Shown: positions 8,486-42,505, counted from the stretch's first letter. The stretch is 64,000 bases of DNA from Anaerolineales bacterium (GCA_020634615.1 JACKBI010000015.1:100230-164229); one strand, 5' to 3'. The notes: generated from the sequence alone by a model not told the origin. Numbers and translations are program-made.

Positions 8486-8574
8486 ACTTCGGAAGTCGCC
8501 GGTTGTGTACACATCTACATTTGCAACGAGAACGACCAGTCCGCGACGTGCTGGCGACTTCCGAAGTATGAGGG
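8486..8574. repeat. Family-B palindromic element with GACTTCGGAAGTCGCCG terminal inverted repeats, copy 1
   Basis: gacttcggaagtcgccgg…N52…ctggcgacttccgaagt. Confidence 0.7.
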
Positions 8575-8762
8575 GCGGCATCCGGTTTGACAGGCGGACA
8601 TGGGCGGGATACACTGGCTACACCACGCTTCACGACCAGGAGTCGTAACTACTCACCCGTCTTTCCCGCGGAGGCGGGAATCCACGCTTCACGAGCACCA
8701 GACTCCCGCCTCCGCGGGAGTGACGTAACGATAAAGGCTGAGTAGCAACCAGGAGTCACTCA

Positions 8763-9179
8763 ATGCCGCTTGCTGTTATCCACGACCGACTTGCTGTTTC
8801 CGCTGTCCTCTTTGCCGGGGTTTGCGCCGTCTGGGGCTTCATCAACTACCTTCGCGGGCAGGACATGACCAGCGGCTACTGGGGTGCTCTGGTGATCTGC
8901 GAAATCCTGATGATTGTCCAGGCCCTCTTTGGGATCATCCTCGCCATCGAGGGCAACCACCCACCGCGCGCGATCGTCCACTACCTCTACGGCATCAGCG
9001 CGGTCATCTCGCTGCCGGCAGTCTATGTCTTCACCGGTGGGCGGGACACACGACGCGAGAGCCTGCTCTACGCGGTTGTCAGCCTCTGGCTCTTCGGCCT
9101 GGCGATCCGCGGCATCACCACCGGCTCGGAGCAGGAGACGGTGGCAATGGTACTGCGTTCGATTGTTGGGTTGATTTAG
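8763..9179 (+). CDS. Hypothetical 4-TM membrane protein
   Basis: Hydrophobic 138-aa ORF followed by a strong terminator. Confidence 0.5.
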   Translation: MPLAVIHDRLAVSAVLFAGVCAVWGFINYLRGQDMTSGYWGALVICEILMIVQALFGIILAIEGNHPPRAIVHYLYGISAVISLPAVYVFTGGRDTRRESLLYAVVSLWLFGLAIRGITTGSEQETVAMVLRSIVGLI

Positions 9180-9195
9180 GACGCGTCTACGAGAA

Positions 9196-9242
9196 AGCCA
9201 GGGCCTCCCTGCTGTTGGACGGCAGGGAGGCCCTGGCTTTTT
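9196..9242. terminator. Bidirectional rho-independent terminator
   Basis: aaagccagggcctccctgc-tgttggacg-gcagggaggccctggcttttt: a 16-bp stem with flanking A and T tracts. Confidence 0.8.
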
Positions 9243-9276
9243 ACTTCCGGTTAAAGTTCGGTGGATGCAGCGAACC

Positions 9277-10551
9277 CTACCAGGATTCGCTGTAGATGAG
9301 ATCACCGAGTGGTGGAGTGTAGTAGGTGAAGTCGGTCAGGTTCCCGCGCATCATCCCTCCGTTGGTGTCCAGTACCGAGAAGATGTTATCGTAGGTGGGC
9401 AGCACACCGCCAGGTGGCGGAATTATGGGGCCGGGCAGGCAGCTAAGGCCGCCTCGGGCATGCACAAACCAGACATCGTCGTAGTTGTTCAATATGGTTG
9501 GGTCGAGAGACGTGATCCCGGCGGCTTCCCATTCCTGGCGCACTTCAGCCGCGGGGCGTCCCTGGATGTCGGCGGTTTGAGCGATAGCCCCGTCGCTCAG
9601 CCACGTTTCCAGAGCGTCCACCGATGTGTGAATCGCGTAGATATTGGTCGTGTCTCCGGGCACGCCTGAACAATTGTAATTCACCAGCGAGAGTGCATAG
9701 TCGGTGATCCAGTCGGGTTGAAGCTGTGAGCGGTTAGCGCGAACGCCGACATCTGGCAAGTATGTCTGTGAACTCTGCAATGGCGCGCGCGAGCTTGCTT
9801 GCCCGATCATGGTCTGTGCCACAGGGATCATCTTCTCGACAGACCATTCGGACGTGTACATGACGTAGCTCAGGTCGCCGTCCACCCACATCAGCACTCC
9901 CAATACGGCCTGATTGATGCCGTCTACGGCTACCACGCCCGGATCGTGCGCTAGGACAGGCGTCCCGTTGATATCGATGATGCGGCTCTGGCCCCTGCCG
10001 GCCTCAGCTTCGCTCAAAGCCCACCTGTGATACTCGATTGCCGCATGATCTCGATAAATCGAGATCATGATTCCGTCCGAGTAGTGAAGCGCGACGGCGT
10101 GCTGGGTGGGAGATAACTCGATGAATTTCAGCGTAATGCCGTCGGGCAGCAGCGATGGCAGCCGGATCGGTACTCCCAGGGCGGCTTCAGCCTCGTCCAA
10201 CGTCACGTATTTGCCGCCATCATAGTTATGACCATCTGCGCGCGGGATCGGGGGAATGAAATGAAGAACCGGCCCCGTGGGGGTGATATAGGGCAGGGGC
10301 GGCGGCATGGTAGCAACTGGCTGCGGCGTTTGACCGTTGGGCGTAGGCAGAGGGTCGGCCGCTGTAGTCGGTGGAGGCGGGGCAAGGGTGGCGATGATGG
10401 GCGAGGATTGGTCTGCGGCAGCAACTGCCGGCGACAGAGCGCTGCCTCCGGCGCAGCCACTGGCGGCCGCAGCAACGACCAGCAATCCGGCGACGAGAAC
10501 GGCAATTTCCAGACGTACAAACGAATGGTTTTTCACGGTGTGTCTCCTCAA
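9277..10551 (-). CDS. Secreted lipoprotein with a Pro-rich linker and a conserved C-terminal ~160-aa domain of unknown function
   Basis: Lipobox LVVAAAASGC. The C-terminal 160 aa are near-identical to the C terminus of the 10720..11868 gene. Confidence 0.6.
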   Translation of the reverse strand: MRRHTVKNHSFVRLEIAVLVAGLLVVAAAASGCAGGSALSPAVAAADQSSPIIATLAPPPPTTAADPLPTPNGQTPQPVATMPPPLPYITPTGPVLHFIPPIPRADGHNYDGGKYVTLDEAEAALGVPIRLPSLLPDGITLKFIELSPTQHAVALHYSDGIMISIYRDHAAIEYHRWALSEAEAGRGQSRIIDINGTPVLAHDPGVVAVDGINQAVLGVLMWVDGDLSYVMYTSEWSVEKMIPVAQTMIGQASSRAPLQSSQTYLPDVGVRANRSQLQPDWITDYALSLVNYNCSGVPGDTTNIYAIHTSVDALETWLSDGAIAQTADIQGRPAAEVRQEWEAAGITSLDPTILNNYDDVWFVHARGGLSCLPGPIIPPPGGVLPTYDNIFSVLDTNGGMMRGNLTDFTYYTPPLGDLIYSESW

Positions 10552-10719
10552 TTCAACCCGGCTTGAAAAGCGCTGGTGCTGTGATCACAAGCTAGCAGGA
10601 CACTGCATTGGGATTGGCCTTAAACTCCTGAACCGAAACGCACAGGCCTCCTTGCTATTCGACAGCAGGAAGGCCCTGACTTCTTACCTCCGGTCAAAGT
10701 CTGGTGGATGCAGTGAATC

Positions 10720-11868
10720 CTACCAGGATTCGCTGTAGATGAGATCACCGAGTGGTGGAGTCCAGTAGCTGAGGTCGGACAGGTTCCCACTCATCAGCGA
10801 GCCACCTGTGGTGTCCAGTACCGAGTAAATGTTATCGTAGGTGGGCAGCACACCGCCAGGTGGCGGAATTATGGGGCCGGGCAGGCAGCTAAGGCCGCCT
10901 CGGGCATGCACAAACCAGACATCGTCGTAGTTGTTCAATATGGTTGGGCCGAGAAACGTGATCCCGGCGGCTTCCCATTCCTGGCGCACTTCAGCCGCGG
11001 GGCGTCCCTGGATGTCGGCGGTTTGAGCGATAGCCCCGTCGCTCAGCCACGTTTCCAGAGCGTCCACCGGTGTGTGAACCGCGTAGATATTGGTTGTCTC
11101 TCCGGGCACGCCTGAACAATTGTGATTCATCAGCGAGAGCGCACGGTCGGTGATCCAGTCGGGTTGAGGCCGCGAGCGGTTGGCGCGAACGCCGACACTT
11201 GGCAAGAATGTCTGTGAACTCTGCGATGGCGCGCGTGAGCTTGTCTCACTCTCCACCACATTTATGTTTACCATGTAATCATCATCGAAAAATTGGTCCG
11301 GATTAACCAAGCTACCAAGTGGTGGTGTGAAATCAGGCTCGGTGAACGCTCCGATCCCGATTTGAACAGCATCTTCAGTCAGAATTACGTAAATGTTGTC
11401 ATATTCCGGCGGTTCCCAACCTTCTGGTCTAAGGTCTTCCGAAGGAAGGGTCAACGGCATTGTCTTGGTACCAACTTGGAAATTGACTCCTCCACGGACA
11501 TCAATCACCCAAATTGTATCTTGCAAAGCATAAAACTCATCTGGCAGCCGGCCAATCTGAGTTCCATTCCATTCGTTACGCACATCGGCTTCGGGACGGT
11601 TTTGCACGCGCGCCGCAGTACGGATTTCGCTTTCACGTAACCAATTTTCGAGTTGCGTAGCGGAAACCTCTGCGGCGTAGACCTTTGTGTCCGCGCTTAG
11701 ATTACCAGCATCTAGTTCAACACTACGTAAAGCTTGTTCCACAATGGAAACCTGCGACACAGTTGATGCGCTTGCCCCTGATCGCCTAAGAAGGCTTGTA
11801 CCTGTAATGATCATGCTTATCACGACAAGCATGATTCCAACACTAACTACTGCGCTACGGTGTGACAT
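10720..11868 (-). CDS. Membrane-anchored secreted protein carrying two copies of the same unknown ~150-aa domain
   Basis: N-terminal signal anchor. The proximal domain copy is diverged and AT-rich; the distal copy is near-identical to the 9277..10551 C terminus, and the duplication includes the downstream terminator. Confidence 0.6.
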   Translation of the reverse strand: MSHRSAVVSVGIMLVVISMIITGTSLLRRSGASASTVSQVSIVEQALRSVELDAGNLSADTKVYAAEVSATQLENWLRESEIRTAARVQNRPEADVRNEWNGTQIGRLPDEFYALQDTIWVIDVRGGVNFQVGTKTMPLTLPSEDLRPEGWEPPEYDNIYVILTEDAVQIGIGAFTEPDFTPPLGSLVNPDQFFDDDYMVNINVVESETSSRAPSQSSQTFLPSVGVRANRSRPQPDWITDRALSLMNHNCSGVPGETTNIYAVHTPVDALETWLSDGAIAQTADIQGRPAAEVRQEWEAAGITFLGPTILNNYDDVWFVHARGGLSCLPGPIIPPPGGVLPTYDNIYSVLDTTGGSLMSGNLSDLSYWTPPLGDLIYSESW

Positions 11869-11925
11869 AGAATACGCCTCCTGATTATGTTTGCAGGGAT
11901 TGGTAGTTGAAAGTAAGGAACGAGG

Positions 11926-12762: not shown

Positions 12763-12840
12763 TTTGTCGCATCCCTGTTTTTAACCTCTATTTGGAAAAC
12801 CCACATTCCAGCTTCATTATCATCAATACAATCATATCAT

Positions 12841-12852
12841 CCCCCCCCCCCC
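12841..12852. repeat. C12 homopolymer (G12 on the coding strand of the flanking genes)
   Basis: Twelve consecutive C between the LuxR stop and the start of the secreted-protein gene. Confidence 0.9.
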
Positions 12853-12896
12853 GTGTCTACTACACTTTAGAGCAGTTTTTCACTATTCGGCGCGTG

Positions 12897-13178: not shown

Positions 13179-13208
13179 GACCCTGTCGAAGTCGTTCTGG
13201 CGGTTGGT

Positions 13209-15110: not shown

Positions 15111-15256
15111 AGGTCTTCGTCAGGGAGTGTCGCTTCGGGAAGTAACGGTTTGGTAGGTGACAGTCACTTTCGGAAAGTGACTGTCACCTGTCAGCGTTTA
15201 TTCTATCACAGACTGCGCAACAGGCAGTCGGCATTGCTACATTTTTCGCGACGCGT

Positions 15257-18425: not shown

Positions 18426-18432
18426 GGTAACC

Positions 18433-19257
18433 ATGCAAAACCTGCGCCAGATTCCTTCACTCATGGGCAAACCACAGCCGCACCTGGCCGGCGAGCCGAT
18501 TCTCGCGCTGCGTGATGTTTCGGCGCGCTACAACGGCCGCTTTGCCCTGCAGGACATTTCGTTCGACCTGATCGCGGGCGAGCAGGTGGCGGTGGTCGGT
18601 CCTAACGGCGCGGGCAAGAGCACACTGTTCAAGGTCATCGCCGGCGTGCTGCCCAGCAGCGGCGGTGAAGTCACAGTGGCCGGCAGCGGGCCGGGCAAAC
18701 ATATCTGCATCGCCTATGTGCCACAGCGCAGCCAGGTGGACTGGACATTCCCCGTCGACGTAGCCGATGTTGTGATGATGGGACGCATTGGCCGTTTGGG
18801 GCTGTTTCGCCGACCCAAACGACTCGACTGGGACTATGTGCATCAGTCGCTGGCCGTGGTTGGCATGTCAGAGTTTGCCGAACGCCAGATCGGTGAGCTG
18901 TCCGGCGGCCAGCAGCAGCGCGTCTTCATTGCCCGCGCGCTGGCCCAGGAGGCAGAGCTGATGCTGATGGACGAACCGCTGACCGGGCTGGATGTGCGCT
19001 CTCAGGAGGACATCTTTGCCGTGCTGGACGAACTACGCGCCCGCGGCGTCACGGTAATGATTGCCACCCACGACCTCAACCTGGCTGCGGAGCGCTTCGA
19101 CCGGGTGATGCTGCTCAACGGCCGGCTGCTGGGCTTTGGCCGGTCCGAAACAGTATTCACCTCAGAACGCCTCCTGAGCGCCTACGGCGGTCACATCCGC
19201 ATGCTGGACACCGGCGACGGAACCCTGATCGTCAACGACACCTGCTGCGACCCGTAA
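18433..19257 (+). CDS. znuC: Zinc/manganese ABC transporter ATP-binding protein
   Basis: Walker A GPNGAGKST; signature LSGGQQQRV. The start is at MQNLRQ; the ORF track's upstream extension overlaps fur. Confidence 0.85.
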   Translation: MQNLRQIPSLMGKPQPHLAGEPILALRDVSARYNGRFALQDISFDLIAGEQVAVVGPNGAGKSTLFKVIAGVLPSSGGEVTVAGSGPGKHICIAYVPQRSQVDWTFPVDVADVVMMGRIGRLGLFRRPKRLDWDYVHQSLAVVGMSEFAERQIGELSGGQQQRVFIARALAQEAELMLMDEPLTGLDVRSQEDIFAVLDELRARGVTVMIATHDLNLAAERFDRVMLLNGRLLGFGRSETVFTSERLLSAYGGHIRMLDTGDGTLIVNDTCCDP

Positions 19258-19360
19258 GCAGTGATCAGTGATCAGTAGACAGTAAACAGTAGGCACGGGT
19301 CAGAGGACCGCGCTGATTACAAGGTTCTGATTACTGAATACTGGTTACTGGTTACTGGTC
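19258..19360. repeat. Heptamer-repeat hairpin element, family C, copy 2 (intra-operonic)
   Basis: cagtgatcagtgatcagtagacagtaaacagtag…ctgattacaaggttctgattactgaatactggttactggttactgg. Confidence 0.7.
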
Positions 19361-19371
19361 ACTTCCCGCCC

Positions 19372-21895: not shown

Positions 21896-22247
21896 GCTCC
21901 ATCTCGACGCCGATACCTCAATCCGTGCGCTTCAGCAGGCACTGGTGGCACGCGGCCACGACGTCACAAGGACTCCAAATCCCTGGATGCCGCACGACGC
22001 GTCCGATCGCAGCCAGTTGCTGGGCGCCAGCGCACAAGGGCGTGTCATTTTCACGTTCAACGTGCGTGACTTTCTTGCTCTGGCGCAGGTATATCAACAA
22101 CATGCCGGAATCGTACTGGCCGCCCAGCAGAGCTGGAGCATTTCGGATCTGATTGCAACACTTGATCGGCTCTTGTCAGAAACGAATGCAACTGACTGGA
22201 TCGGCCAGGTCCGCTGGCTCAACCAATGGCGCGACAAGCTCCCGTAA
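21880..22247 (+). CDS. DUF5615 (PIN/Mut7-C-like) protein, putative toxin partner of DUF433
   Basis: LHLDADTS…GHDV…PHDASD…GRVIFTFNVRDF. It overlaps the upstream gene by 16 nt. Confidence 0.6.
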
Positions 22248-22270
22248 CTCACTTGCTGCAAAGGCTCACC

Positions 22271-23170
22271 ATGACCGCTTACCTCGCTCTCGAATCGACC
22301 CTTATTTCCCACGGATTGCCCTATCCGCAGAATCTGGAGACTGCCCGTCGCCTGGAGGCGATTGCGCGCGAATCCGGCGCCGAGCCGCGGACTGTGGCGG
22401 TGATCAATGGTCAATTGCGCGCCGGACTGACGGGGGAGGAATTGGAATGTCTGGCCAGCACAGCAGGCGTGCGCAAGCTCTCACGCCGCGACCTGCCCAT
22501 CGCGGTCGCACGCGGTTGGACCGGCGCGACCACCGTCGCCACGACGATGTGGATCGCCGCGCAACACGGCATCCGCGTCTTCAGCACCGGCGGAATCGGC
22601 GGGGTACACAGGTTACAAGTGGCAAGTGGCAGGTGGCAGGTTGCTGGCGGCGCGATTGCAGCGGATGTTTCCGCGGATTTGCCTGAACTTGCGCAGACGC
22701 CGGTGGCTGTAATATGCGCTGGCGCCAAGGCGATCCTCGATCTGCCGGCGACGCTGGAATACCTGGAGACGTGGGGAGTGCCAGTAGTCGGCTACGGCAC
22801 CGATGAGTTCCCGGCCTTTTACACGCGGTGCAGCGGCCTGCCGGTCGATGTGCGCGTCGATACGCCAGAGGAAGCCGCTGCCATCATCGAGGCCAAGCGC
22901 AAGCTTGGGCTGCCCGGCGGCGTGCTGATCTGCGCACCGGTGCCGGCAGAGTTCGAGTTGCCCGCTGACGAAGCCAACGCGGCCATCGAGCAGGCGCTGG
23001 CTGAGGCCGACGAACAGGGCGTGCGCGGCAAGGAGATTACACCATTCCTGCTGGCCCGCATCGTCCAACTGACCGGTGAGCGCAGCCTGCGTGCCAATCT
23101 GGCACTTTTGGAAAACAACGTGCGCGTTGGCGCACAGATCGCGAAAGCGCTTGCTGCAATCACGTCATAG
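22271..23170 (+). CDS. psuG: Pseudouridine-5'-phosphate glycosidase
   Basis: MTAYLALESTLISHGLPYPQN…, an indigoidine synthase A-like fold. Confidence 0.85.
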   Translation: MTAYLALESTLISHGLPYPQNLETARRLEAIARESGAEPRTVAVINGQLRAGLTGEELECLASTAGVRKLSRRDLPIAVARGWTGATTVATTMWIAAQHGIRVFSTGGIGGVHRLQVASGRWQVAGGAIAADVSADLPELAQTPVAVICAGAKAILDLPATLEYLETWGVPVVGYGTDEFPAFYTRCSGLPVDVRVDTPEEAAAIIEAKRKLGLPGGVLICAPVPAEFELPADEANAAIEQALAEADEQGVRGKEITPFLLARIVQLTGERSLRANLALLENNVRVGAQIAKALAAITS

Positions 23171-23174: not shown

Positions 23175-23262
23175 CGGACTTCGGAAGTCGCCGCTTGATA
23201 GTGACAATCGGTTTCACGCGTTCAAACGGCCTTCGTTACGCAACCAGCAACTTCCGAAGTCT
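23175..23262. repeat. Family-B palindromic element, copy 2 (between convergent genes)
   Basis: ggacttcggaagtcgccgc…N50…caacttccgaagtctgc. Confidence 0.65.
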
Positions 23263-28364: not shown

Positions 28365-29537
28365 GTGACTCCACCCGCCGGACCACTGAGCGTTGCGTTG
28401 CTCGCGGCAAACCCGTCGACGCCAACCCGTACATCGCATTGTTGCGCGCCGGGCTGGCCGACGCCGGCGTCGCGGCGACCATCGTTGATGACCCTGGACC
28501 AGACGGCCTGCCAGAGCCGGCCCGCCGCGCCGACATCGTGCATCTGCACTGGCTGGAACTGTGGGGCAGACCGCCCTATCGCAGCCTGCAACATCTGGCG
28601 CGCTGGGGTGTAGCAGGGCGGGCGGCGCGCGACGCTGGCTGGAGCCGGCCCTCAACAGCCCGTCCGTTCCGCTGCCCGCCGCGCACAGTTTCTTGACCGG
28701 TTCTTCGCCGCGTTGGCTGACTACAAAGCTGGCGGCGGGCGGCTGGTCTACACGCTGCACAACTGGGGCCAGCACGAAGGCGAGGGCGAGCAGGTGGAAG
28801 CGGCAGCGTTGGATCGATTGCTGCAACAGGCCGATGCCGTTCACGTCCACGCAGACTACATCGTCCCGCAGTTGCAGGCCAGGCTGCCCGCGGGTGCGTC
28901 GACCGTTGTGACGGTCATTCCCCACGGCAACTACATCGGCGCGTACCCGAACACCGCGGATCGCAGCGAAGCCCGCCAGCGCCTCGCCCTGCCAGACGAC
29001 GCATCTGTCTACCTGTTCTTCGGCCTGATCCGACCGTACAAAGGATTGGAAGAGCTGCTGCCGGCCTTTGTTCAGGTCGCCGACCCACAGGCGCGGCTGT
29101 TGATCGCCGGGCAGTCGCGGCCGCGCGACTATGCTGGTCAACTTGCCGGGAATACCAACGATGCCCGCATCCACTGGCATCCACAGTTCGTGCTGGATGA
29201 CGACATTCAGCTGTGGATGAACGCCGCGGACATCGTCGTCCTGCCGTACCGCCGTATCACCACCAGCGGCGCGGCCATGCTCGCCTGGAGCTTCGGCAAG
29301 CCGGTGATCGCCCCGGCGTTGCCTGCCTTTGTTGAGCCGATGGATAGAGCGCCTTTCCTCGGCGTCCTTTACGATCCCGGTGACCCAACAGCACTCGTAG
29401 CAGCGTTGCAGAAAGCGCAAGGCGGCGACTGGCAAATTTTCCAGCCCGATATCCTGACGTGGGCCGCGCAGTTCAACTGGCAGCGCATCGGACAGCGCTT
29501 CGCCAAACTTTACGGAGAGGTGATCAGTGACCAGTAA
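28365..29537 (+). pseudogene. GT4 glycosyltransferase with two frameshifts between about 28610 and 28685
   Basis: GT-like peptide occupies three successive frames: …ADIVHLHWLELWGRPPYRSLQHLARW (frame 2), then RRWLEPALNSP (frame 1), then RRAQFLDRFFAALADYKAGGGRLVYTLHNW… (frame 0), continuing to a GT-B C-terminal domain. Stop codons interrupt each frame. Confidence 0.45.
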
Positions 29538-29630
29538 TCAGTGATCAGTCCCGGATCCACCCAACGCAAGTTAGGCCGGTCAGGAGACTGTTTACCGATT
29601 ACTGATTACCGATCACCGATTACCTCCTCC
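29515..29630. repeat. Heptamer-repeat hairpin element, family C, copy 3
   Basis: gaggtgatcagtgaccagtaatcagtgatcagtcc…accgattactgattaccgatcaccgattacc. It supplies the last codons and the stop of the upstream gene. Confidence 0.7.
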
Positions 29631-29631
29631 C

Positions 29632-30843
29632 ATGAACTTCGTCGTCTTCGCCCCCAACCCCTGGCACGACATCTGGCGCAACCGCCAGCAGATCTTCAGC
29701 CGGCTGGCAGGACGTCACCGCGTCCTGTACATAGAGCCGGCGCGCGCCAGCCTGGCAGACTGGCGCCGCAGTCGCGTTACTCTGGCCGATCTGCGCCGTC
29801 CCGCCGTGGCCAAAGAACAGCCCAATCTGTGGCTATACCGCATCCCTGCTGCCCTGCCCAGCCGCGACACCGGCGACCTCTTCGACCGCACGACTGACCG
29901 CTTGCTGGCCGCCCACCTGCGCCGCACCCTCCGCCAACTCGATTTCCTTCCCAGCCCCCAGTCCCCAGTCCCCACGCCCTACGCCCCAGTTCTTTGGCTC
30001 TACCGTCCTACCCACTGGCGCTGGGCCACGGATAACATCCCGCACAGCCTGCTCGTCTACCACATCACCGACGACTACACCGCCTTCGGCCACCTCACAG
30101 CCGCCCAGCGCGACGCGATGGCAACCGCCGAGCGCAACCTGCTGGCCGCCGCCGACCTGACCATCGTCACCGCTCCGCGCCTGCTGGAGCTGAAACGCCC
30201 TTCCGCCCGCCGCATCGAACTCGTCCCCAACGGCGTCGATTTCGACGCCTTCCAACGCGCCCTCGCCAACCCGCGCAAACTCCCACAACTCGAGGCTCTC
30301 CAGCCCCCACACCCCATCCTGGGCTACAGCGGCCACATCAGCAGCCGTCTCGACCTGCCGCTACTGCGTGACCTGGCGCTGGCGCGACCGGAATGGCAGT
30401 TCGTCTTCGCCGGCAGCGAGGACGCGCGCGGTTGCGAGGCGGATCTGGCCGCCCTCAAATCGCTCCCCAACGCCCATTTTCTGGGCGTACTGCCCGTGGA
30501 AGACGTGCCGCACTTCATCGTCGCCTGCGACGTCTGCCTGATCCCCTACCGCATCAACGACGAGACGCGTGCCATCAGTTCGCTGAAGCTGTACGAGTAT
30601 CTCGCCGCAGGCAAACCCGTGGTCAGCGCGCGTGTGCCGGCGGCCGTGGAGTACGCCGATGTCGTCGAAATTGCAGATGGAACCGTGGACTCCTGGCTGC
30701 TCAGTCTGGCCAGCGCCCTTGGATCACAACAAGACGGTGAAGCAGCGACAGCCCGTCAAACCGTGGCTCTGGCAAACACGTGGGACGCTAGAGTGCAGCA
30801 GATCGAAACACTGATGGCGGATGCTCAACGAAACACAGCCTGA
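29632..30843 (+). CDS. Glycosyltransferase (group 1, TuaH-like), paralog A
   Basis: GT-B C-terminal motif …CDVCLIPYRINDETRAISSLKLYEYLAAGKPVV. Confidence 0.75.
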   Translation: MNFVVFAPNPWHDIWRNRQQIFSRLAGRHRVLYIEPARASLADWRRSRVTLADLRRPAVAKEQPNLWLYRIPAALPSRDTGDLFDRTTDRLLAAHLRRTLRQLDFLPSPQSPVPTPYAPVLWLYRPTHWRWATDNIPHSLLVYHITDDYTAFGHLTAAQRDAMATAERNLLAAADLTIVTAPRLLELKRPSARRIELVPNGVDFDAFQRALANPRKLPQLEALQPPHPILGYSGHISSRLDLPLLRDLALARPEWQFVFAGSEDARGCEADLAALKSLPNAHFLGVLPVEDVPHFIVACDVCLIPYRINDETRAISSLKLYEYLAAGKPVVSARVPAAVEYADVVEIADGTVDSWLLSLASALGSQQDGEAATARQTVALANTWDARVQQIETLMADAQRNTA

Positions 30844-34598: not shown

Positions 34599-34616
34599 TT
34601 CGAACCTGTTTCCCAG

Positions 34617-34667
34617 AAAACGAAGGAGGCCAGGCATTCACGTGAATGCCTGGCCTCCTTCGTTTAT
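34617..34667. terminator. Perfect 24-bp-stem palindromic bidirectional terminator
   Basis: aaaacgaaggaggccaggcattcac|gtgaatgcctggcctccttcgtttat. Confidence 0.85.
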
Positions 34668-36480: not shown

Positions 36481-37722
36481 ATGTTCATGGCGGCCACAGC
36501 AACGCAAGCAGCATTGTCGAACGGAGCACGCACGATACCCGCCCAACTCGCGCTGAGCAGCGAAGCTGGCACACTCAAGCGCTCGGTGATGCGCGAGTTG
36601 TTAAAGCTGACAGCGCGCGCTGATGTGATCTCACTGGCAGGCGGGCTGCCGGCCAGCGAGTTGCTGCCATTGGCTCAGTTGCAGGAGTGCATCGAAACCG
36701 TGTTACGGCGCGACGGAACGCGCGCCTTGCAATACAGCCCGATGATCGAACCGCTGCGCCGCTGGATCTGCGACACCATGCGCGCCAGAGGCGTCGCGTG
36801 TGAGCCAGAGCAGGTCCACATCACCAACGGCGCACAGCAGGGTCTGACCATCCTGTCGCGGCTTTTTCTCAATCCCGACCAGCCTGCCGTGGTCGAAGCA
36901 ATCACCTTCACCGGCATTCAGCAGGTAACCGCCGGCCGAGGCGCAGTGATGCGCACGGTCCCCACCGACCTGGCCACCGGCGTTGATGTCGACGCGCTGG
37001 AGGAGGCATTTCACCGCACGCCGCGGCCGCGGCTGGCCGTGGTCATCCCCGACTTCCACAACCCGCTGGGCGTCAGCCTCACTCTCGAGAAGCGGCAGCG
37101 CATCGCTGAACTGGCAGCTCGCTACCGGGTGCCGCTGGTGGAGGACGACCCCTATTCCGCGTTGAGATTCGACGGCCAGTCGTTACCGCCCATCAAGGCG
37201 TTCGACGAGGCCGGCGCCGTGTTTTACATCGGCTCGTTTTCCAAGATGCTGGCGCCGTCGCTACGGCTGGGCTGGATCGTTGCTCCGGCTGAACTGGCCT
37301 CGCAGGTGACGGTGCTGCGCGAGTCCATCGACCTGGAATCTTCGACATTGATCCAGCGCGCAGTCAGCCTGTTTGTTGAACAAGGGCTGATGGCAGGACA
37401 CCTGGCGCGCTTCAACGCTGCCAACCGCTGCCGCCGCGATGTGTTGTTCGACGCGTTGGCACACTATCTCGGTGACCGGGCAAGCTGGACACGGCCGGAA
37501 GGCGGGCTGTTCGTCTGGCTGACGCTACGCGAGGAAATCGACACGTGGGCGTTACTGGAAGATGCGATCGCAGCAGGTGTGGCTTTCGTGCCCGGAGCGG
37601 CGTTTGCGCTGAACGGCGGCTCCCACAACACACTGCGCCTGAATTTCAGCAACGTGCAGCCGGAGTTGATCCCCGTCGCAGTCGAGCGATTGGCGCAGGT
37701 GATCAAGCAGAAGGGGAAATGA
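36481..37722 (+). CDS. PLP-dependent aminotransferase (LysN/2-aminoadipate aminotransferase-like)
   Basis: Collinear with Thermus LysN (…[27 protein letters not shown]…[15 protein letters not shown]…). Confidence 0.8.
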
Positions 37723-37803
37723 GGGAAAGAAGGGAAAGGAAGGAAACGCCCTCCCGCCCAAGGTTGTTTCGTCGGGTTTCCCTTCTTTCCTTCCTTTCCC
37801 TCC
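37712..37803. repeat. Family-A element: purine arm, spacer, pyrimidine arm
   Basis: gggaaatgagggaaagaagggaaaggaaggaaac…gtttcccttctttccttcctttccc. Confidence 0.65.
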
Positions 37804-37810
37804 AGCTTGT

Positions 37811-38491
37811 GTGATTACCATGACCCAACCCACGTTCATTCCCCTCGACTTCACCGAATACCCGCCCGACGAGATGCAGCGGCGGGCTGAGGCGTTCTAC
37901 GCTGAGCTCAGCCGGCGACGGACGGTGCGCGAGTTTTCCGACCGGCCTGTGCCGCGCGCATTGATCGAAACGTGCCTCCTGGCGGCCGGCAGCGCCCCCA
38001 ACGGCGCCAACCTGCAACCATGGCATTTCGTCGCCGTGGCCGCCCCGGCCATCAAACGCCAGATCCGCGCGGCGGCTGAGGCCGAGGAGCGGGAGTTCTA
38101 CAGCGGGCGCGCGCCGCAGGAGTGGATCGACGCGCTTGCGCCGCTGGGCACCGATCCCAACAAGCCATTCCTGGAGATCGCTCCCTGGCTGATCGTGATC
38201 TTCGGCCAGTCCTACGGTTTGCTGCCTGATGGCCGCAAGGTGAAACACTACTACGTGCAGGAGTCGGTCGGCATCGCGACGGGGATGCTGATCACCGCGC
38301 TGCACCACGCCGGACTGGCCACGCTGACCCATACACCCAATCCCATGGGTTTCCTCAACGACCTGCTGGGCCGGCCGGCCAATGAACGGCCGTTCCTGAT
38401 CCTGGTGGCCGGTTACCCGGCCGCGGACGCGCGCGTGCCAACTCACGCGCTGAACAAGAAGCCATTGAACGAGATCGCGACGTTTATCTGA
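37811..38491 (+). CDS. Nitroreductase-family flavoprotein (iodotyrosine-deiodinase-like)
   Basis: Nitroreductase fold signatures; 226 aa. Confidence 0.75.
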
Positions 38492-38510
38492 GAGGCCTTT
38501 CGCAGATCCA

Positions 38511-38596
38511 GACTTCGGAAGTCGCCGGGTCTACCTGTAGAGCCGGTTTGCGCGTTCAGGGCTGTCTTCTTTGCAAGCCGGCGACTTCCGAAGTCT
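38511..38596. repeat. Family-B palindromic element, copy 3
   Basis: gacttcggaagtcgccggg…N46…gccggcgacttccgaagtc. Confidence 0.75.
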
Positions 38597-38640
38597 TTGA
38601 TAACAGCCTCCAGACGAATCTATACAAGAGGAGTACTGCC

Positions 38641-39765
38641 ATGACCGTGCCAACCAACGGCGCACGCGCCATCACCGAGGAAGCCGATTTCCTGCAACTG
38701 AAAGCTATCGACCACGTTCACTGGTGGGTGGGCAACGCCAAGCAGACCATGTACTACTGGTGGAAGGCGTTCGGATTCAAGCCGGTGGCCTATTCCGGGC
38801 TGGAAACCGGCAATCGCCAGTTCGCGTCATATGTGCTGGAATCGGGCAAGATTCGTTTCGTCATCTCCGCCGCCTACGGCCCCAGCAGCGAGATCGCCGC
38901 GCATCATCTGGTCCACGGCGACGGCATCAAGGCCATCGCGTTGACAGTGGATGACGTGGAGAAAGCCTGGCGCGAGACCACCCAGCGCGGCGGCAAGAGC
39001 GCCTGGGCGCCGCGCGAGGAAGCGGACGAGTACGGTGTACTGCGTACCTCAGCCATCCAAATCTACGGCGAGGTGCTGCATGTCTTCGTGGATCGCAACG
39101 ACTACCGCGGTCCCTTTGCGCCCAGCTACCGACCGCTGGACATGCCGGCCCAGTCGACCGGACTGGCGGCTGTCGATCACATGGTGGGCAACGTGCAGCT
39201 TGGCAAGATGAACTACTGGGTCAACTTCTACCACCAGGTGATGGGCTTCCGCCAGTTGCTGCACTTTGACGACCAGGACATCAGCACCGAATACTCTGCG
39301 CTGATGTCGAAGGTGATGCAGAACGGCAGCGGGCGGGTCAAGTTCCCCATCAACGAGCCGGCTGAGGGCAAGCGCAAGAGCCAGATCGAGGAATACCTGG
39401 ACTACTACATGGGGCCGGGAGTGCAACACGTGGCCATGAGCACCGGCGATATTCTGGCGACGATGAGCCAGTTGCGCGCCAACGGCGTCGAGTTCCTGCG
39501 CGTGCCAGACGCCTATTACGACCAGTTGCCCGAGCGGATCGGCAAGATCGACGAGGACATGGCGGCCATCCGCGAGATGGGAATCCTGGTGGATCGGGAC
39601 GACGAGGGCTATCTGTTGCAGGTCTTCTCGCGCCCCCTGCAAGACCGTCCCACCGCGTTCATCGAGGTCATCGAGCGCCACGGCAGCCGCGGCTTCGGCA
39701 AAGGCAACTTCAAGGCGCTGTTCGAGGCGCTGGAAATGGAGCAGGAGCGGCGCGGCAATCTGTAG
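38641..39765 (+). CDS. hppD: 4-hydroxyphenylpyruvate dioxygenase
   Basis: Two VOC modules, with iron ligands in HVAMSTGD…; 374 aa. Confidence 0.9.
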   Translation: MTVPTNGARAITEEADFLQLKAIDHVHWWVGNAKQTMYYWWKAFGFKPVAYSGLETGNRQFASYVLESGKIRFVISAAYGPSSEIAAHHLVHGDGIKAIALTVDDVEKAWRETTQRGGKSAWAPREEADEYGVLRTSAIQIYGEVLHVFVDRNDYRGPFAPSYRPLDMPAQSTGLAAVDHMVGNVQLGKMNYWVNFYHQVMGFRQLLHFDDQDISTEYSALMSKVMQNGSGRVKFPINEPAEGKRKSQIEEYLDYYMGPGVQHVAMSTGDILATMSQLRANGVEFLRVPDAYYDQLPERIGKIDEDMAAIREMGILVDRDDEGYLLQVFSRPLQDRPTAFIEVIERHGSRGFGKGNFKALFEALEMEQERRGNL

Positions 39766-39852
39766 GGGGTGGGGAGTGGGGAATGGGGACTGGGGATCAG
39801 CCCTCACTCCGGTTTCCCTCCTTTCCCTTCTTTCCTTCCTTTCCCTCTTCTC
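39766..39852. repeat. Family-A element with a G-quadruplex-prone purine arm
   Basis: ggggtggggagtggggaatggggactgggga…tttccctcctttcccttctttccttcctttccc. Confidence 0.7.
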
Positions 39853-39868
39853 AAAGGAGCGTTACCCT

Positions 39869-40494
39869 TGGAAATCACCCCCTCCTCCCTCCCCTGGCAG
39901 TCGCTGTACAAGCTGATGATTGGGTCGATTGTGCCGCGCGCCATTGGCTGGGTGTCGACTGTGAACGAGGCGGGCGAGCCGAATCTCGCGCCGTTTTCGT
40001 TTTTCACCGCGGCCGGGGCCAATCCGCCGCATGTTCTGTTCTGCCCGATGATCCGCTCCACCGACGGCCAGCCCAAGGACACGTTGCACAACGTGCGCGC
40101 CACGGGTGAGTTCGTCGTCAACATCGTCACCGAGGCTCTGGGACCGGCGATGAACATCACGTCAACTGAGCTGCCTGCGGATGTGAACGAGTTCGCGGCG
40201 GCCGGATTGACGCCGGCGCCATCGAGCGTGGTGCGCCCGCCGCGTGTCGCTGAAAGCCCCATCCACTTCGAGTGCCGGCTGACGCAGATCGTCGATCTTG
40301 GCGACCAGCCCGGCGCGGCCAGCGTGGTCATCGGCGAGGTCGTGCATTTACACGTGGACGACGCGCTGCTGATCGGCGGCGACAAAATCGACATCGCGCA
40401 GTTGCAACCCATCGGCCGCCTGGCCGGCAACAGCTACAGCCGCGTCGCCCCGGCCATGTTCGACCTCATCCGCCCGCCTTCACAGATCGGATAG
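39869..40494 (+). CDS. Flavin reductase-like (FMN-binding split-barrel) protein
   Basis: AAAGGAG ribosome-binding site 8 nt before TTG at 39869; …SLYKLMIGSIVPRAIGWVST… The ORF track's upstream start lies in repeat sequence. Confidence 0.7.
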
Positions 40495-40505
40495 AAGCTC
40501 ACCAC

Positions 40506-40588
40506 GGAGAGAAGGAGGGAAAGGAGGGAAAGAGACAAGCGCAGGTCGGCCCCTTGGTTTCCCTCATTTCCCATCTTTCCCTCTTCCC
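40506..40588. repeat. Family-A element
   Basis: ggagagaaggagggaaaggagggaaagagac…ggtttccctcatttcccatctttccctcttccc. Confidence 0.65.
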
Positions 40589-40590
40589 AT

Positions 40591-41070
40591 TCATCGAAAT
40601 CGGTCACGAAATGTCTGAATCTGGCCACTGTGCTCGCGCTTGTGGCCGTAGTATTGATAGGCGATCAGATCTTCCAGGTCGTATTGCGCGCCGTACCAGG
40701 GAATCGCACCGGTCCGCTGCAGCAAGCCGGCCGGCAGATCGCTGACCAGTCCACGGACCTGTTCGTGCGCGGCGAGGTATTCCTCGAGGCACCGTTCGTA
40801 CGTCCAGCCGTTGCGCAGTTCGTCCACCTGATGATCGTTGAACGCCTGCCCGTCGGCTTTGAGCGCATCGCGCAGCGGGGTCGGACACGGTGTCACCACA
40901 TCCTGCAGCACCTCCACCAGCACCAGCTCAAAAGATGCCAGATGCGCCACCAGATCCTTGACCGACCAGTAGCCTACCGCCCCACTGGTGGTGCGCTGGT
41001 CGGCCGGAACCAGATCCAGCGTGCGCATGAACGTAAAATGGCCGTACATCAAAACGTCGGACGCGTGCAT
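40591..41070 (-). CDS. DinB/ClbS(DfsB)-like four-helix-bundle protein
   Basis: …WSVKDLVAHLASFELVLVEVL… pattern. Confidence 0.5.
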   Translation of the reverse strand: MHASDVLMYGHFTFMRTLDLVPADQRTTSGAVGYWSVKDLVAHLASFELVLVEVLQDVVTPCPTPLRDALKADGQAFNDHQVDELRNGWTYERCLEEYLAAHEQVRGLVSDLPAGLLQRTGAIPWYGAQYDLEDLIAYQYYGHKREHSGQIQTFRDRFR

Positions 41071-41074
41071 GGCG

Positions 41075-42262
41075 TTACTCCTTGAAGTGTGACAGCGCAG
41101 CGGCAAACCCGGGCAGGGCGCGATCAATCATCGCATCGCTGGCAGTGATCGAGATACGAAAATAGCCGGGCATCTCGAATGTTGCGCCCGGCAGCACCAA
41201 CACGTCACGCTCCGCCAGCCAGTGGCAAAACGCCACATCGTCGGCCAGCGGTGAACGCACCAGCAGATAGAAGGTCCCCTCCGGGCTGCGCAGGGAGTAA
41301 CCCATGTCGCGCAGCGCGCTCACGAGCCTGTCACGCTTGGCCTGCAGGTGCTCGATGTCGATGGAGAGCTTTTCCAGGTCGGGCAGGGCATGCTGCAACA
41401 GGGCGTTGGGAAAAGCGTAGGCCGTAACGACCTGGGACGCGAGGATTGCCGGACGCATTGCCTCGCGCGCCGGCATTGACGGCGGCAGTGCGATGTAGCC
41501 GATGCGCTGGCCGGGCGTCAACAGCGTCTTGCCATAGGTGTAGAGCAGAAACGACTGATCGTAATAGGCAGTCGGGGTCGTGAACTCGCGGCCATCGTAG
41601 ACGATCCGGTTGTACGACTCGTCGGACAGCAGGTAGATCGTCCGGCCGTTGCGCTGGCTGGCAGCCGTCAGCAGATCTGACAGCGCTGTCAGCGTGGCCG
41701 GCGGGTAGATCCTGCCGGTGGGATTGTTAGGCGAATTGACAATGATGGCGCGCGTCCGCGGCGTGATGGCAGCCTCGATCGCGGCCAGGTCCAGGTCGAA
41801 GCTGACCGGGTCGCACTGCACCCGCACCGGCGTTCCCATGCTGGAGGCAATCATCGCTTCGTAGAAGAACCAGGGCGGGCTGATGTAGATGATCTCGTCG
41901 CCCGGATCGGTGATCGCGCCTAACGCCACAGCGATGGCTGCGAATGCGCCGTTGGTCATGAAGATGTCGTCAGCGTCAAAGGGCATGTCGAAGCGCTGCC
42001 GCAGCGTTTCAGCCACGATACGGCGCGGGCCTGGCTCGCTCATTTTGTAGGCGAACCAATCCTTGTCGTGCGGCGTGCTCCAGCGCTGCAATGCCTCGGT
42101 GAACTCCGGCAGCGGCATCTCCTGCGGATTGCCGGCCACAAAATCGCTGACGCCGGGGTTCCCCATGCGCGAGGTCACGACCGGGTCCTGGAAGAAATTA
42201 AGGAACGGGCTCATGGCCCCAAGCACCGCGGCGATGCGTTTCGATCCTGATACAGGTATGGA
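41075..42262 (-). CDS. Class I/II PLP-dependent aminotransferase
   Basis: …NSPNNPTGRIY… and a PLP lysine region (YGKTLL…). Confidence 0.8.
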   Translation of the reverse strand, partial: SIPVSGSKRIAAVLGAMSPFLNFFQDPVVTSRMGNPGVSDFVAGNPQEMPLPEFTEALQRWSTPHDKDWFAYKMSEPGPRRIVAETLRQRFDMPFDADDIFMTNGAFAAIAVALGAITDPGDEIIYISPPWFFYEAMIASSMGTPVRVQCDPVSFDLDLAAIEAAITPRTRAIIVNSPNNPTGRIYPPATLTALSDLLTAASQRNGRTIYLLSDESYNRIVYDGREFTTPTAYYDQSFLLYTYGKTLLTPGQRIGYIALPPSMPAREAMRPAILASQVVTAYAFPNALLQHALPDLEKLSIDIEHLQAKRDRLVSALRDMGYSLRSPEGTFYLLVRSPLADDVAFCHWLAERDVLVLPGATFEMPGYFRISITASDAMIDRALPGFAAALSHFKE

Positions 42263-42419
42263 CATCCGGGTTTCCTTTCCCTGGTACACATTCACTGCCG
42301 CTAATCACGGCACACCTTACGTCATGTTTAACGTATTGACTCGGCCAATTGCGCCGCGCAACCTGTTGCTGTGTGCCATTCACAGGTATAATGGCAGCCG
42401 GCAACACAGAGACGACACG

Positions 42420-42505
42420 GACTTCGGAAGTCGTCGGCTGCTTGTCAGGAGCGGCCCGCAACGGCTGGCACAAGCCCTCGTGTTGACTCGGCGACTTCCG
42501 AAGTC
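42420..42505. repeat. Family-B palindromic element, copy 4
   Basis: gacttcggaagtcgtcgg…N48…ctcggcgacttccgaagtc. Confidence 0.75.

What the first reader, a model, noticed from the sequence alone, without database searches (positions are those of the whole stretch)
8486..42505. Family-B ~85-bp palindromic elements bounded by GACTTCGGAAGTCGCCG inverted repeats
Four copies (8486-8574, 23175-23262, 38511-38596, 42420-42505), all intergenic, each with the 17-nt terminal inverted repeat and a 46-52 nt variable centre; the core GACTTCGGAAGTC is itself palindromic. Positions include convergent, divergent and tandem gene junctions. A related long hairpin (gcgacttcagtcgcc arms) forms the terminator at 60115-60178. 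The structure is MITE/REP-like; no cognate transposase is in the window.
Basis: seen in the sequence. Interest (0 to 1): 0.55.

Follow-up and report, generated by a model that had tools for sequence, protein, structure and literature searches.

The report
REP-doublet repeats of a Chloroflexota RAYT transposase
The four ~85-bp hairpin repeats are real and belong to a widespread Chloroflexota family of small palindromic repeats. In related genomes these repeats flank a single-copy "REP-associated" tyrosine transposase gene, so this is an undescribed member of a well-known kind of bacterial repeat, not a new kind of element.

Summary
The window carries four intergenic ~85-bp elements, each GACTTCGGAAGTCGCCGG...CCGGCGACTTCCGAAGTC. 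The motif gives 16 hits against 1.6 expected. Two more copies lie just beyond the window's left end in the same genome.

The 11-nt core ACTTCSGAAGT occurs as inverted pairs in at least 107 genome stretches. 98 of these come from about 40 Chloroflexota MAGs. The elements are strongly depleted inside ORFs, show no target-site duplication, match no Rfam family and have no conserved internal structure.

The deciding evidence is genetic association. A Y1/HUH transposase sits between such repeats on both sides in 3 genome loci and in 17 of 80 metagenome loci. It hits Pfam Y1_Tnp, its best NCBIfam hit is REP_Tyr_transpos, and its only PDB hit is E. coli TnpA_REP (4ER8). Sister transposases are flanked by co-varying palindromes such as AGACCTCGGAGGTCT.

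The elements are therefore REP doublets ("REPINs") of a RAYT system. They are not classical TIR/TSD MITEs.

Two points remain open. I could not show a cognate RAYT in this genome, because the whole assembly could not be scanned. Mobility is inferred, not shown.

The 60115-60179 hairpin is a different, GTAG-tagged palindrome. It is not a family member and not a demonstrable terminator.

Verdict: new member of a known kind, modest interest.

The parts
8485..8568 (.). Copy 1. REP doublet: left REP GACTTCGGAAGTCGCCGG, 52-nt centre, right REP CTGGCGACTTCCGAAGTA with a degenerate last base. It lies between the divergent AMP-binding gene (-) and a membrane-protein ORF (+).
   Evidence: (I23)
23177..23261 (.). 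Copy 2. REP doublet with 3 arm mismatches (right arm CAGCAACTTCCGAAGTC). It fills the gap between the stop codons of the convergent psuG-like and luciferase-like genes, 6 nt and 3 nt from them.
   Evidence: (I14)
38510..38596 (.). Copy 3. REP doublet with perfect 19-nt arms, AGACTTCGGAAGTCGCCGG / CCGGCGACTTCCGAAGTCT. It lies between nitroreductase and HPPD and ends 45 nt before the HPPD start codon. It is present in all six strain contigs L001-L006, with one C/T polymorphism in the right arm.
   Evidence: (I12)
42420..42505 (.). Copy 4. REP doublet with 17-nt arms and one G.T wobble position (GTCGTCG / CGGCGAC). It lies between the divergent aminotransferase and DinB genes and ends 43 nt before the DinB start codon. 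It is present in all six strain contigs.
   Evidence: (I17)
38597..38609 (+). Possible outer tail of copy 3 (TTGATAACAGCC). It resembles the outer motif CTTTTCAAACAG / GGCTGAACAGTTAC that flanks family members in related Caldilineae MAGs. Low confidence.
   Evidence: (D10)
42506..42518 (+). Possible outer tail of copy 4 (TTTCCAACCAGC), the same motif as above. Low confidence.
   Evidence: (D10)

Best explanation
The four elements are REP doublets (REPIN-like units). Each is two copies of a short palindromic REP, core (A)GACTTC-G-GAAGTC(T), extended here by GCCGG, in inverted orientation around a ~50-nt spacer. Together they make an 18-19-bp hairpin when single-stranded.

They belong to a repeat superfamily spread through Chloroflexota genomes. 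Its cognate enzyme is a single-domain Y1/HUH tyrosine transposase of the RAYT (TnpA_REP) type, whose gene is itself bracketed by these REPs.

The likely mechanism is by analogy with E. coli TnpA_REP and IS200/IS605. The RAYT recognises the folded REP or REP doublet on single-stranded DNA, for example at the replication fork. It cuts and rejoins it without making target duplications. This slowly seeds copies into intergenic DNA, where they persist and diverge.

In the host, the transcribed hairpins probably act as mRNA 3'-end stabilisers or barriers. That would fit copy 2, wedged between two convergent stop codons.

Shown: the anatomy, the dispersal, the extragenic bias, the lack of TSD, compensatory arm changes, and the REP-RAYT linkage in related genomes.

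Inferred: RAYT-catalysed movement, the presence of a cognate RAYT in this particular genome, and any RNA-level effect.
For: (1) Four copies in the window far exceed chance. Two more lie in the next 9 kb of the same genome.

98 are from ~40 Chloroflexota MAGs, with several copies per MAG at unrelated loci. For example, at least 10 stretches come from Caldilineae HK-STAS-CHLO-19 and 10 from Caldilineales DTUCFX11.

(3) Clustering of neighbouring ORFs found only one relevant recurrent neighbour, a ~190-aa protein in L041, L102 and L022.
- It hits Pfam Y1_Tnp at 32.4 and 30.2 bits, above the 23-bit cutoff; the third protein scores 20.7, just below.
- Its best NCBIfam hit is REP_Tyr_transpos, at 73.7 and 67.8 bits.
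- Its only PDB match is 4ER8 TnpA_REP, with the HUH and YxxxNP motifs aligned.
- JGI names homologues 'REP element-mobilizing transposase RayT'.

(4) All three of these genes have core sites on both sides. Among 80 metagenomic homologues, 20 have the core within 7-41 nt of the gene ends, except for one upstream site at 148 nt (L142); 17 have it on both sides. 40 others are flanked by variant palindromes, AGACCTCGGAGGTCT or AGAAACCnGnTTTCT. This is the REP-RAYT co-variation pattern.

(5) Sites alternate in orientation. In the unbiased RAYT loci the counts are G..C 21, C..G 26 and same-orientation 1. There are two spacing classes, ~18-20 nt and ~70-86 nt, as in BIME/REPIN arrays.

(6) Elements lie inside long stop-free frames in 35/144 cases, against 4251/5400 for random segments. 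There is no TSD signal.

(7) The consensus fold of 33 GCCG-type members is only the 18-bp terminal stem. It shows compensatory C-G to G-C changes in 7 sequences and no conserved interior structure.

(8) REP doublets occur in-frame inside some RAYT ORFs but not in their relatives. These are lineage-specific insertions.
Against: No RAYT was found in the window, in the 9 kb beyond it, or in any fetched locus carrying the GCCG subtype. No RAYT locus with the exact GTCGCCG extension was recovered. The link between this subtype and a RAYT therefore rests on the shared 13-nt core and architecture.

The unit lacks the conserved 5' GTAG/CGTC tag of classical REPs. At 13-19 nt it is shorter than typical REPs. 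A single unit folds only weakly as ssDNA, at -2.6 kcal/mol, no better than shuffles.

The window's copies are mutually diverged, and two have degenerate arms. That fits old or inactive copies.

No clean empty site was obtained. The orthologous nitroreductase-HPPD spacer in a 93%-identical relative lacks the element but is too diverged to align.

RAYT-mediated REP transposition has never been directly shown in vivo for any system (established knowledge).
Confidence: 0.78

Rival explanations
1. The copies are immobile relics. They descend from a REPIN population, but this genome has lost its cognate RAYT, so they only decay or are kept for host-level uses.
For: No RAYT was found in about 73 kb of this genome. 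The window copies are diverged from each other, and copies 1 and 2 have degenerate arms. One neighbouring copy has a strongly decayed right arm, GAGTTCCAAAGTC.
Against: A single-copy gene is expected to be absent from about 1.5% of a genome, so its absence here says little. Copies 3 and 4 have near-perfect 17-19-nt arms. A related MAG, DTUCFX11, has 85-95% identical GCCG-type copies, which suggests recent activity of this subtype.
Confidence: 0.2
2. The elements are primarily RNA-level: bidirectional terminators, mRNA-stabilising hairpins or small RNAs selected for that function. Their repetition reflects convergent use of a stable stem.
For: The predicted hairpins are strong on both strands. 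Copy 2 sits exactly between convergent stop codons. Arm changes are compensatory or G.U-compatible.
Against: No Rfam match was found, either at gathering score or at E<=1 in the sub-region holding copies 3 and 4. No U-tract or terminator call falls at those two copies. Copies 1 and 4 lie in divergent promoter regions where no transcript ends. The interior has no conserved structure. Exact conservation of a 13-nt palindrome across ~40 MAGs, together with linkage to a transposase gene, is not explained by a need for 'any stable stem'.
Confidence: 0.1
3. The elements are classical MITEs. They would be deletion derivatives of a DDE-transposase insertion sequence with these terminal inverted repeats, moved by cut-and-paste with target duplication.
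For: They have terminal inverted repeats of 15-21 nt, a size of ~85 bp and a dispersed intergenic location.
Against: Flanking k-mers match no more than chance for k>=4 at four boundary offsets in 144 elements. No longer element with the same ends and a transposase other than the RAYT appeared among 107 loci. The repeat is itself palindromic. It also occurs as tight doublets and as alternating arrays, which is typical of REP/BIME and not of MITEs.
Confidence: 0.04
4. The sites are paired operator or partition-type binding sites for a dimeric host DNA-binding protein that recognises GACTTC-N-GAAGTC. This could be a global regulator or a ParB/Noc-like protein.
For: The core is a perfect odd palindrome, as for many dimeric binders. 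The 72-73-bp spacing in the window is nearly constant.
Against: Neighbouring genes are functionally unrelated, and no regulator recurs next to the sites. The sites occur between convergent genes and in tandem arrays of up to 11 units. Independent dimer sites would not require the central base always to be G on the left and C on the right, nor the GCCGG arm extension with compensatory changes. The sites track RAYT genes.
Confidence: 0.04

Closest known systems
REPIN-RAYT systems of Pseudomonas and Enterobacteria (Bertels & Rainey 2011, PMC3116915; Bertels et al. 2017, PMC5581495)
   Same: Two short palindromic REPs lie in inverted orientation around a spacer and form a long hairpin. The elements are extragenic and dispersed and have no TSD. 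In related genomes a Y1/HUH transposase gene is bracketed by the same REPs. REP sequence and RAYT lineage co-vary.
   Different: The REP here is a 13-15-nt perfect odd palindrome without the GTAG tag, and it folds weakly on its own. The same core persists across ~40 MAGs labelled as several Chloroflexota classes, whereas proteobacterial REPs are largely lineage-specific. A cognate RAYT has not yet been shown in this genome. Bertels 2017 notes that 'Group 4' RAYTs are common in Caldilineae; I did not test whether this clade is Group 4.
E. coli REP/BIME and TnpA_REP (PDB 4ER8; Messing et al. 2012, PMC3479197)
   Same: TnpA_REP is the only solved relative of the associated protein, at E=3e-5 with the HUH and YxxxNP motifs aligned. 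REPs alternate in orientation with two spacer classes, as in BIMEs.
   Different: Similarity is low; NCBIfam REP_Tyr_transpos scores 68-74 bits, below its 80-bit cutoff. There is no GTAG guide tetranucleotide. The cleavage site is unknown.
TIRYT / 'TIRtron' elements (Di Nocera et al. 2013, PMC3733652)
   Same: These are RAYT-like genes flanked not by GTAG REPs but by other inverted repeats. Some of those repeats are self-complementary, and some belong to moderately abundant dimer or cluster repeat families.
   Different: That paper lists GTAG repeats in Chloroflexi but does not describe this sequence. The 11-mer appears in no relevant paper in the library.
Bacterial MITEs (e.g. Correia, ERIC, RUP)
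   Same: Small size, terminal inverted repeats, intergenic location and a hairpin in transcripts.
   Different: There are no target-site duplications and no DDE-type parent IS. The ends are palindromic REP units that also occur alone, as tight doublets and in arrays.
IS200/IS605 family ends
   Same: The transposase is of the Y1/HUH type. Ends are recognised as ssDNA hairpins and no TSD is made.
   Different: The RAYT gene is not itself multicopy in the data seen. The repeats are far more numerous than the gene. No TnpB is present.

Membership tests
REP / REPIN-RAYT system | Short palindromic repeat unit able to form a stem-loop | tested here: inconclusive
   The core GACTTC-G-GAAGTC is a perfect odd palindrome. 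A single unit folds at only -2.6 kcal/mol as ssDNA, no better than shuffles. At 13-19 nt it is shorter than the usual 20-40 nt.
REP / REPIN-RAYT system | Two REPs in inverted orientation forming a long hairpin (REPIN), or alternating arrays (BIME) | tested here: met
   All four window copies are G..C inverted pairs at 71-73 nt. In unbiased loci there are 47 inverted pairs against 1 same-orientation pair. Hairpin z-scores are -2.5 to -6.1.
REP / REPIN-RAYT system | Many dispersed, mostly extragenic copies per genome | tested here: met
   There are 6 copies in ~73 kb of this genome. Related MAGs hold at least 10 stretches each in a truncated scan. 24% of elements lie inside long open frames against 79% of random segments. 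The genome-wide count for this genome was not obtainable.
REP / REPIN-RAYT system | A RAYT (Y1/HUH transposase with HUH and catalytic Tyr) whose gene is flanked by the same REPs | tested here: met
   This is met in related genomes and metagenomes: 3 genome loci and 20 of 80 metagenome loci, 17 of them flanked on both sides.
REP / REPIN-RAYT system | Cognate RAYT present in the same genome as these particular copies | not testable with these tools
   No RAYT is in the window or the adjoining 9 kb.
REP / REPIN-RAYT system | Conserved 5' GTAG (or CGTC) tetranucleotide next to the palindrome | tested here: not met
   The bases before the core are usually (A/G)AGAC. GTAG occurs only sporadically, for example downstream of the gene in L134, L150 and L155.
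REP / REPIN-RAYT system | Insertion without target-site duplication | tested here: met
   In 144 elements no direct repeats of 4 nt or more exceed chance.
REP / REPIN-RAYT system | Demonstrated mobility (filled versus empty sites) | tested here: inconclusive
   All six strain contigs keep copies 3 and 4. A relative with 93%-identical HPPD lacks the element at the syntenic spacer, but the spacer cannot be aligned. In-frame REP doublets are present in some RAYT ORFs and absent in relatives.
MITE (DDE-type) | Target-site duplications and a parent IS with the same TIRs | tested here: not met
Intrinsic terminator | GC-rich stem with a short loop followed by a U-tract downstream of a gene | tested here: not met
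   No terminator call falls at copies 3 and 4. The loops are 43-52 nt. Copies 1 and 4 lie between divergent genes.
Any Rfam RNA family | Covariance-model match | tested here: not met
   There are no matches at gathering score in the whole window. There are none on copies 3 and 4 at E<=1.

The most novel reading that the evidence does not exclude
This could be an ancient, vertically persisting REPIN-RAYT partnership spanning much of Chloroflexota. Its 13-15-nt palindromic REP has stayed almost invariant across orders, and RAYT genes have repeatedly taken up their own REP doublets in-frame, read as QTSEV..TSEV, at two fixed loop positions. That would point to a host- or enzyme-level function: RAYT autoregulation through its own coding sequence or mRNA hairpin, or a conserved host factor that binds the palindrome. 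It would go beyond selfish spread.
Probability: 0.12. Interest if true: 0.55.

Novelty: new member of a known kind. Interest (0 to 1): 0.3.

Why it matters
REP/REPIN-RAYT systems have been studied almost only in Proteobacteria. This adds a well-populated Chloroflexota family. More than 7,700 RAYT homologues score E<=1e-20, and the REP core is shared by dozens of MAGs.

The family offers a natural series of REP variants paired with closely related transposases, for example ACTTCGGAAGT versus ACCTCGGAGGT. That is useful for working out how RAYTs read their substrates.

There are practical consequences too. These hairpins and arrays are likely assembly breakpoints in activated-sludge Chloroflexota MAGs. 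They also mark intergenic sites that may affect mRNA stability.

For the window itself the finding is ordinary: four non-coding repeats with no cargo.

Tried and rejected
- **Rfam.** The scan at gathering score over the whole window and the scan at E<=1 over 38400-42600 found nothing on the elements. The only hits are weak miRNA-like matches on neighbouring purine-rich hairpins.
- **Promoter and terminator scan.** The scan around copies 3 and 4 found nothing at the elements.
- **TSD search.** Four boundary offsets and k = 2-8 gave no signal.
- **Guilt by association.** Clustering 3,878 ORFs from 107 loci found only generic families (kinases, ABC transporters) apart from the RAYT.
- **RAYT search in held sequence.** tblastn and a 120-sequence HMM were run against the window, the strain contigs and all genome-scan loci. 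Only L041, L102 and L022 hit.
- **RAYT locus with the GTCGCCG subtype.** None was found among the 80 metagenome loci.
- **Empty-site search via HPPD orthologues.** L195 is syntenic but its spacer cannot be aligned, and L196/L197 have a different gene order.
- **Literature.** The 11-mer appears only in unrelated primer lists. No paper combines 'repetitive extragenic palindromic' with 'Anaerolineae'.
- **Viral-contig scan.** A scan for the GTAG-tagged hairpin unit gave 0 hits.
- **RAYT identity by REP type.** Within-type identity is only slightly higher than between-type (0.667 against 0.646). REP type is therefore not a clean clade marker at this resolution.
- **Non-Chloroflexota hits of the scan.** Those from Gemmataceae, Bacteroidota and Vicinamibacterales are different repeat families that happen to contain the core. 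I did not pursue them.

Full report
**Observation**

The sequence at the four stated places shows the same architecture. A left arm GACTTCGGAAGTCGCCGG is followed by a 43-52-nt centre and a right arm CCGGCGACTTCCGAAGTC. The exact coordinates are 8485-8568, 23177-23261, 38511-38595 and 42420-42505.

The 13-mer with up to 2 mismatches gives 16 hits on both strands against 1.56 expected; no shuffle reaches 16. The 11-mer ACTTCSGAAGT with up to 1 mismatch occurs at exactly these eight sites and nowhere else in the 64 kb. The 13-mer is an odd palindrome, GACTTC-G-GAAGTC. In every copy the left site has G at its centre and the right site has C, so the two sites are true inverted repeats and not two independent palindromes.

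The repeat finder reports arms of 15-21 nt with 86-100% complementarity. The predicted hairpins are much more stable than shuffled controls, both as RNA on either strand and as DNA.

**Gene context**

The window is a Chloroflexota genome close to MAGs GCA_020634655.1 and GCA_023957165.1 from activated sludge. Gene calls on those contigs, together with Pfam, place all four copies between genes:

| Copy | Junction type | Left gene | Right gene |
|---|---|---|---|
| 1 | divergent | AMP-binding enzyme (6794-8362, -) | small membrane protein (8763-9179, +) |
| 2 | convergent | psuG-like (22226-23170, +) | luciferase-like (23265-24272, -) |
| 3 | tandem | nitroreductase (ends 38491) | HPPD (starts 38641) |
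| 4 | divergent | aminotransferase (41075-42265, -) | DinB (42549-43037, +) |

Copy 2 fills the 94-bp gap between its two stop codons.

**Are the copies confined to the window?**

They are not. Fetching the DNA beyond the window's left end (L199) shows two further copies of the same subtype within 9 kb. One sits 30 nt upstream of a cupin gene. The other has a decayed right arm. That makes six copies in about 73 kb.

98 of them come from about 40 MAGs labelled Anaerolineae, Caldilineae, Chloroflexia, Ardenticatenaceae or Chloroflexota, often with many stretches per MAG. I extracted 147 elements. The core (A)GACTTCGGAAGTC(T) is constant. Interiors fall into subfamilies with length modes of about 75, 84 and 96 nt, and some loci hold tandem arrays; L112 has 11 units with an 82-nt period.

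The nine non-Chloroflexota stretches are different repeats that happen to contain the core.

**What travels with the elements?**

I clustered all ORFs of at least 80 codons from the 107 loci. Apart from generic families, one small protein recurs right next to elements in L041, L102 and L022. The evidence on its identity is:

- It has the HUH motif (HYHLL) and a YxxxNP tyrosine motif.
- It hits Pfam Y1_Tnp, with two of three proteins above the cutoff.
- Its best NCBIfam hit is REP_Tyr_transpos, at 73.7 and 67.8 bits against a cutoff of 80.
- Its only match among solved structures is 4ER8, E. coli TnpA_REP bound to a REP, with both catalytic motifs aligned.

In all three loci the gene has core sites on both sides. 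In L041 there are six tandem elements upstream, one immediately downstream and two more after a small ORF.

I then used an alignment of the three proteins to pull 80 homologous loci from metagenomes. In 20 of them ACTTCSGAAGT (up to 1 mismatch) lies within 7-41 nt of the gene ends, apart from one upstream site at 148 nt in L142. In 17 it lies on both sides. Another 40 are flanked by related palindromes instead, AGACCTCGGAGGTCT or AGAAACCnGnTTTCT, and rarer variants occur such as AGACTTTGGAAGTCT and AGACATCGGAAGTCT.

This is the signature of REP-RAYT systems: a transposase gene bracketed by the repeat it is thought to mobilise, with repeat and enzyme diverging together. The protein family is large. 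7,762 proteins score E<=1e-20, and several are named 'REP element-mobilizing transposase RayT' by JGI.

**Further anatomy consistent with REP/BIME/REPIN**

- **Orientation.** In the RAYT loci, which were not selected on repeat arrangement, neighbouring sites alternate in orientation almost without exception: G..C 21, C..G 26, same orientation 1. There are two spacing classes, about 18-20 nt for tight doublets and about 70-86 nt for long doublets like those in the window.
- **Extragenic bias.** Elements are depleted in long open frames, 35/144 against 4251/5400 for random segments.
- **No target duplication.** Flanks show no target-site duplication.
- **Structure.** A consensus fold of 33 GCCG-subtype members predicts only the 18-bp terminal stem. 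One position is switched C-G to G-C in seven members (the GTGGCC...GGCCAC subfamily). There is no conserved interior structure.
- **Interiors.** They are alignable but diverged, so the 'variable centre' is old shared sequence and not a hypervariable cassette.
- **Single unit.** A single unit folds weakly as ssDNA, whereas a tight doublet gives -18.8 kcal/mol. The doublet is the likely structural unit.
- **Outer motif.** In related Caldilineae MAGs, and in one copy of this genome, the doublet is embedded in a further inverted motif, GTAACTGTTCAGCC ... GGCTGAACAGTTAC. It lies close to one arm and about 13 nt from the other. Copies 3 and 4 keep a recognisable version on one side only (D10). The true element may therefore be about 100-125 nt. 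This motif is a candidate for the cleavage or target region, but that is speculation.

**Mechanism**

By analogy with E. coli TnpA_REP and IS200/IS605 (established knowledge; PMC3479197, PMC6006769), the RAYT would bind the folded repeat on single-stranded DNA. It would cut and rejoin it through a covalent tyrosine intermediate, with no target duplication.

The steps shown here are the anatomy, the dispersal and the genetic linkage. The catalytic step, the substrate form and activity in this genome are inferred.

Transcribed copies probably act as RNA hairpins that protect upstream mRNA or block read-through, as known for REPs. Copy 2, 6 nt and 3 nt from two convergent stop codons, is the best candidate. 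No terminator-like T-run was found where I scanned, around copies 3 and 4.

**Limits**

- I could not show a RAYT in this organism. None is in the window, the flanks or any locus carrying the GCCG subtype. The whole assembly could not be searched.
- All six strain contigs keep copies 3 and 4.
- The closest orthologous spacer without the element is too diverged to serve as a clean empty site.
- The classical GTAG tag is absent, so in Di Nocera's terms the enzyme might be called a TIRYT and not a RAYT (PMC3733652).
- Bertels et al. report 'Group 4' RAYTs as common in Caldilineae (PMC5581495). I did not test whether this clade is Group 4.

**The 60115-60179 hairpin**

It is real, with 30-nt arms, a 5-nt loop and z = -11. 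It lacks the family core. Its arms are GTAGTAGCGACTTCAGTCGCC, a GTAG-tagged palindrome, and it is unique in the window. A similar unit occurs in Anaerolineae SSC4 (L015). It lies 4 nt after the stop codon of the minus-strand peptidase M1 gene, with no T-run following on that strand. It is better read as a member of a separate GTAG-class REP family. Its role as a terminator is unproven.

**Comparison and verdict**

The elements work like, and are best filed with, REPIN/REP-RAYT systems. They are a new sequence family in a phylum where such repeats have barely been described. No paper in the library holds the motif or links REPs with Anaerolineae. They are not a new kind of element, and interest is modest.

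The most unusual points are the conservation of the short palindrome across many Chloroflexota lineages and the repeated in-frame presence of REP doublets inside RAYT genes.

Noticed in passing
L134 3148-3176, L135 2920-3002, L141, L041 866-894, L154, L169 (site A); L117, L127-L129, L136 (site B); L202 10205-10233: Many RAYT genes of this clade carry tight REP doublets in-frame inside their own coding sequence, translated as QTSEV..xTSEV. They sit at two fixed positions: between RKYLxG and the AYCLMP-HUH strand, or just after the HUH motif. Close relatives lack the insert, and L135 has two doublets. Both REP variants, ACT TCC GAA GTC and ACC TCC GAG GTC, encode TSEV.
   Followed up: partly
window 60115-60179: A near-perfect 30-bp hairpin made of two inverted GTAG-tagged palindromes (GTAGTAGCGACTTCAGTCGCC), 4 nt after the stop codon of the minus-strand peptidase M1 gene. 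It is a different REP-like family from the finding. A similar unit occurs in L015 near 7530-7560.
   Followed up: partly
window 5200-5300, 19240-19365, 29515-29632; also L196 2385-2490 and L197 2400-2490: Long intergenic hairpins built from degenerate 7-nt repeats (CAGTGAT / CAGTAAT / GGTTAAT...). They occur in the window and, with other heptamers, upstream of the HPPD gene in related genomes.
   Followed up: no
window 8440-8482, 24924-24955, 37714-37808, 39804-39853, 40558-40598: Purine-rich GGGAAAGGAAGG tracts, several paired with their complement to form hairpins between genes. They give weak sub-threshold miRNA-like Rfam hits only.
   Followed up: no
window 45865-46440 (inside the astacin-like gene 45812-47377, -): Four tandem 144-nt coding repeats at 65-71% identity. 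The gene's called length differs among strain contigs (494, 446 and 140 aa), which suggests repeat-number or assembly variation.
   Followed up: no
window 9277-10551 and 10720-11868 (-): Two tandem paralogous genes for secreted proteins without Pfam matches. Their 3' ~450 nt are 87-96% identical (repeats D2 and D4). This is likely recent duplication or gene conversion.
   Followed up: no
window 34618-34665, 45062-45101, 9194-9240, 15155-15189: Perfect or near-perfect palindromes of 17-24-nt arms with 0-3-nt loops in intergenic DNA. They are unrelated in sequence to the family studied.
   Followed up: no
L010, L069, L079, L085, L105 (JACKBK), L053, L055, L100 (JAJTXO), L199 16985-17115: GCCG-subtype elements are embedded in an outer inverted motif, GTAACTGTTCAGCC ... 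GGCTGAACAGTTAC, placed asymmetrically: 3-4 nt from one arm and about 13 nt from the other. The mobile unit may therefore be about 125 nt, and the motif may mark the cleavage or target site.
   Followed up: partly
L112 758-1323 and 3757-4322; L099 1467-1715; L012; L043; L041 44-679: In some Chloroflexota MAGs the elements form head-to-tail arrays of up to 7 and 4 adjacent units with an 82-nt period. The interiors are diverging, so the arrays look superficially CRISPR-like, but the 'spacers' are homologous to each other.
   Followed up: partly
window as a whole versus GCA_020634655.1: Window genes at 22-23 kb and 44-45 kb map to two different contigs of that MAG, JACKBH010000025 and JACKBH010000009. 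The window therefore comes from a more contiguous assembly of a near-identical strain. L200 and L201 show a truncated AMP-binding gene next to copy 1.
   Followed up: no
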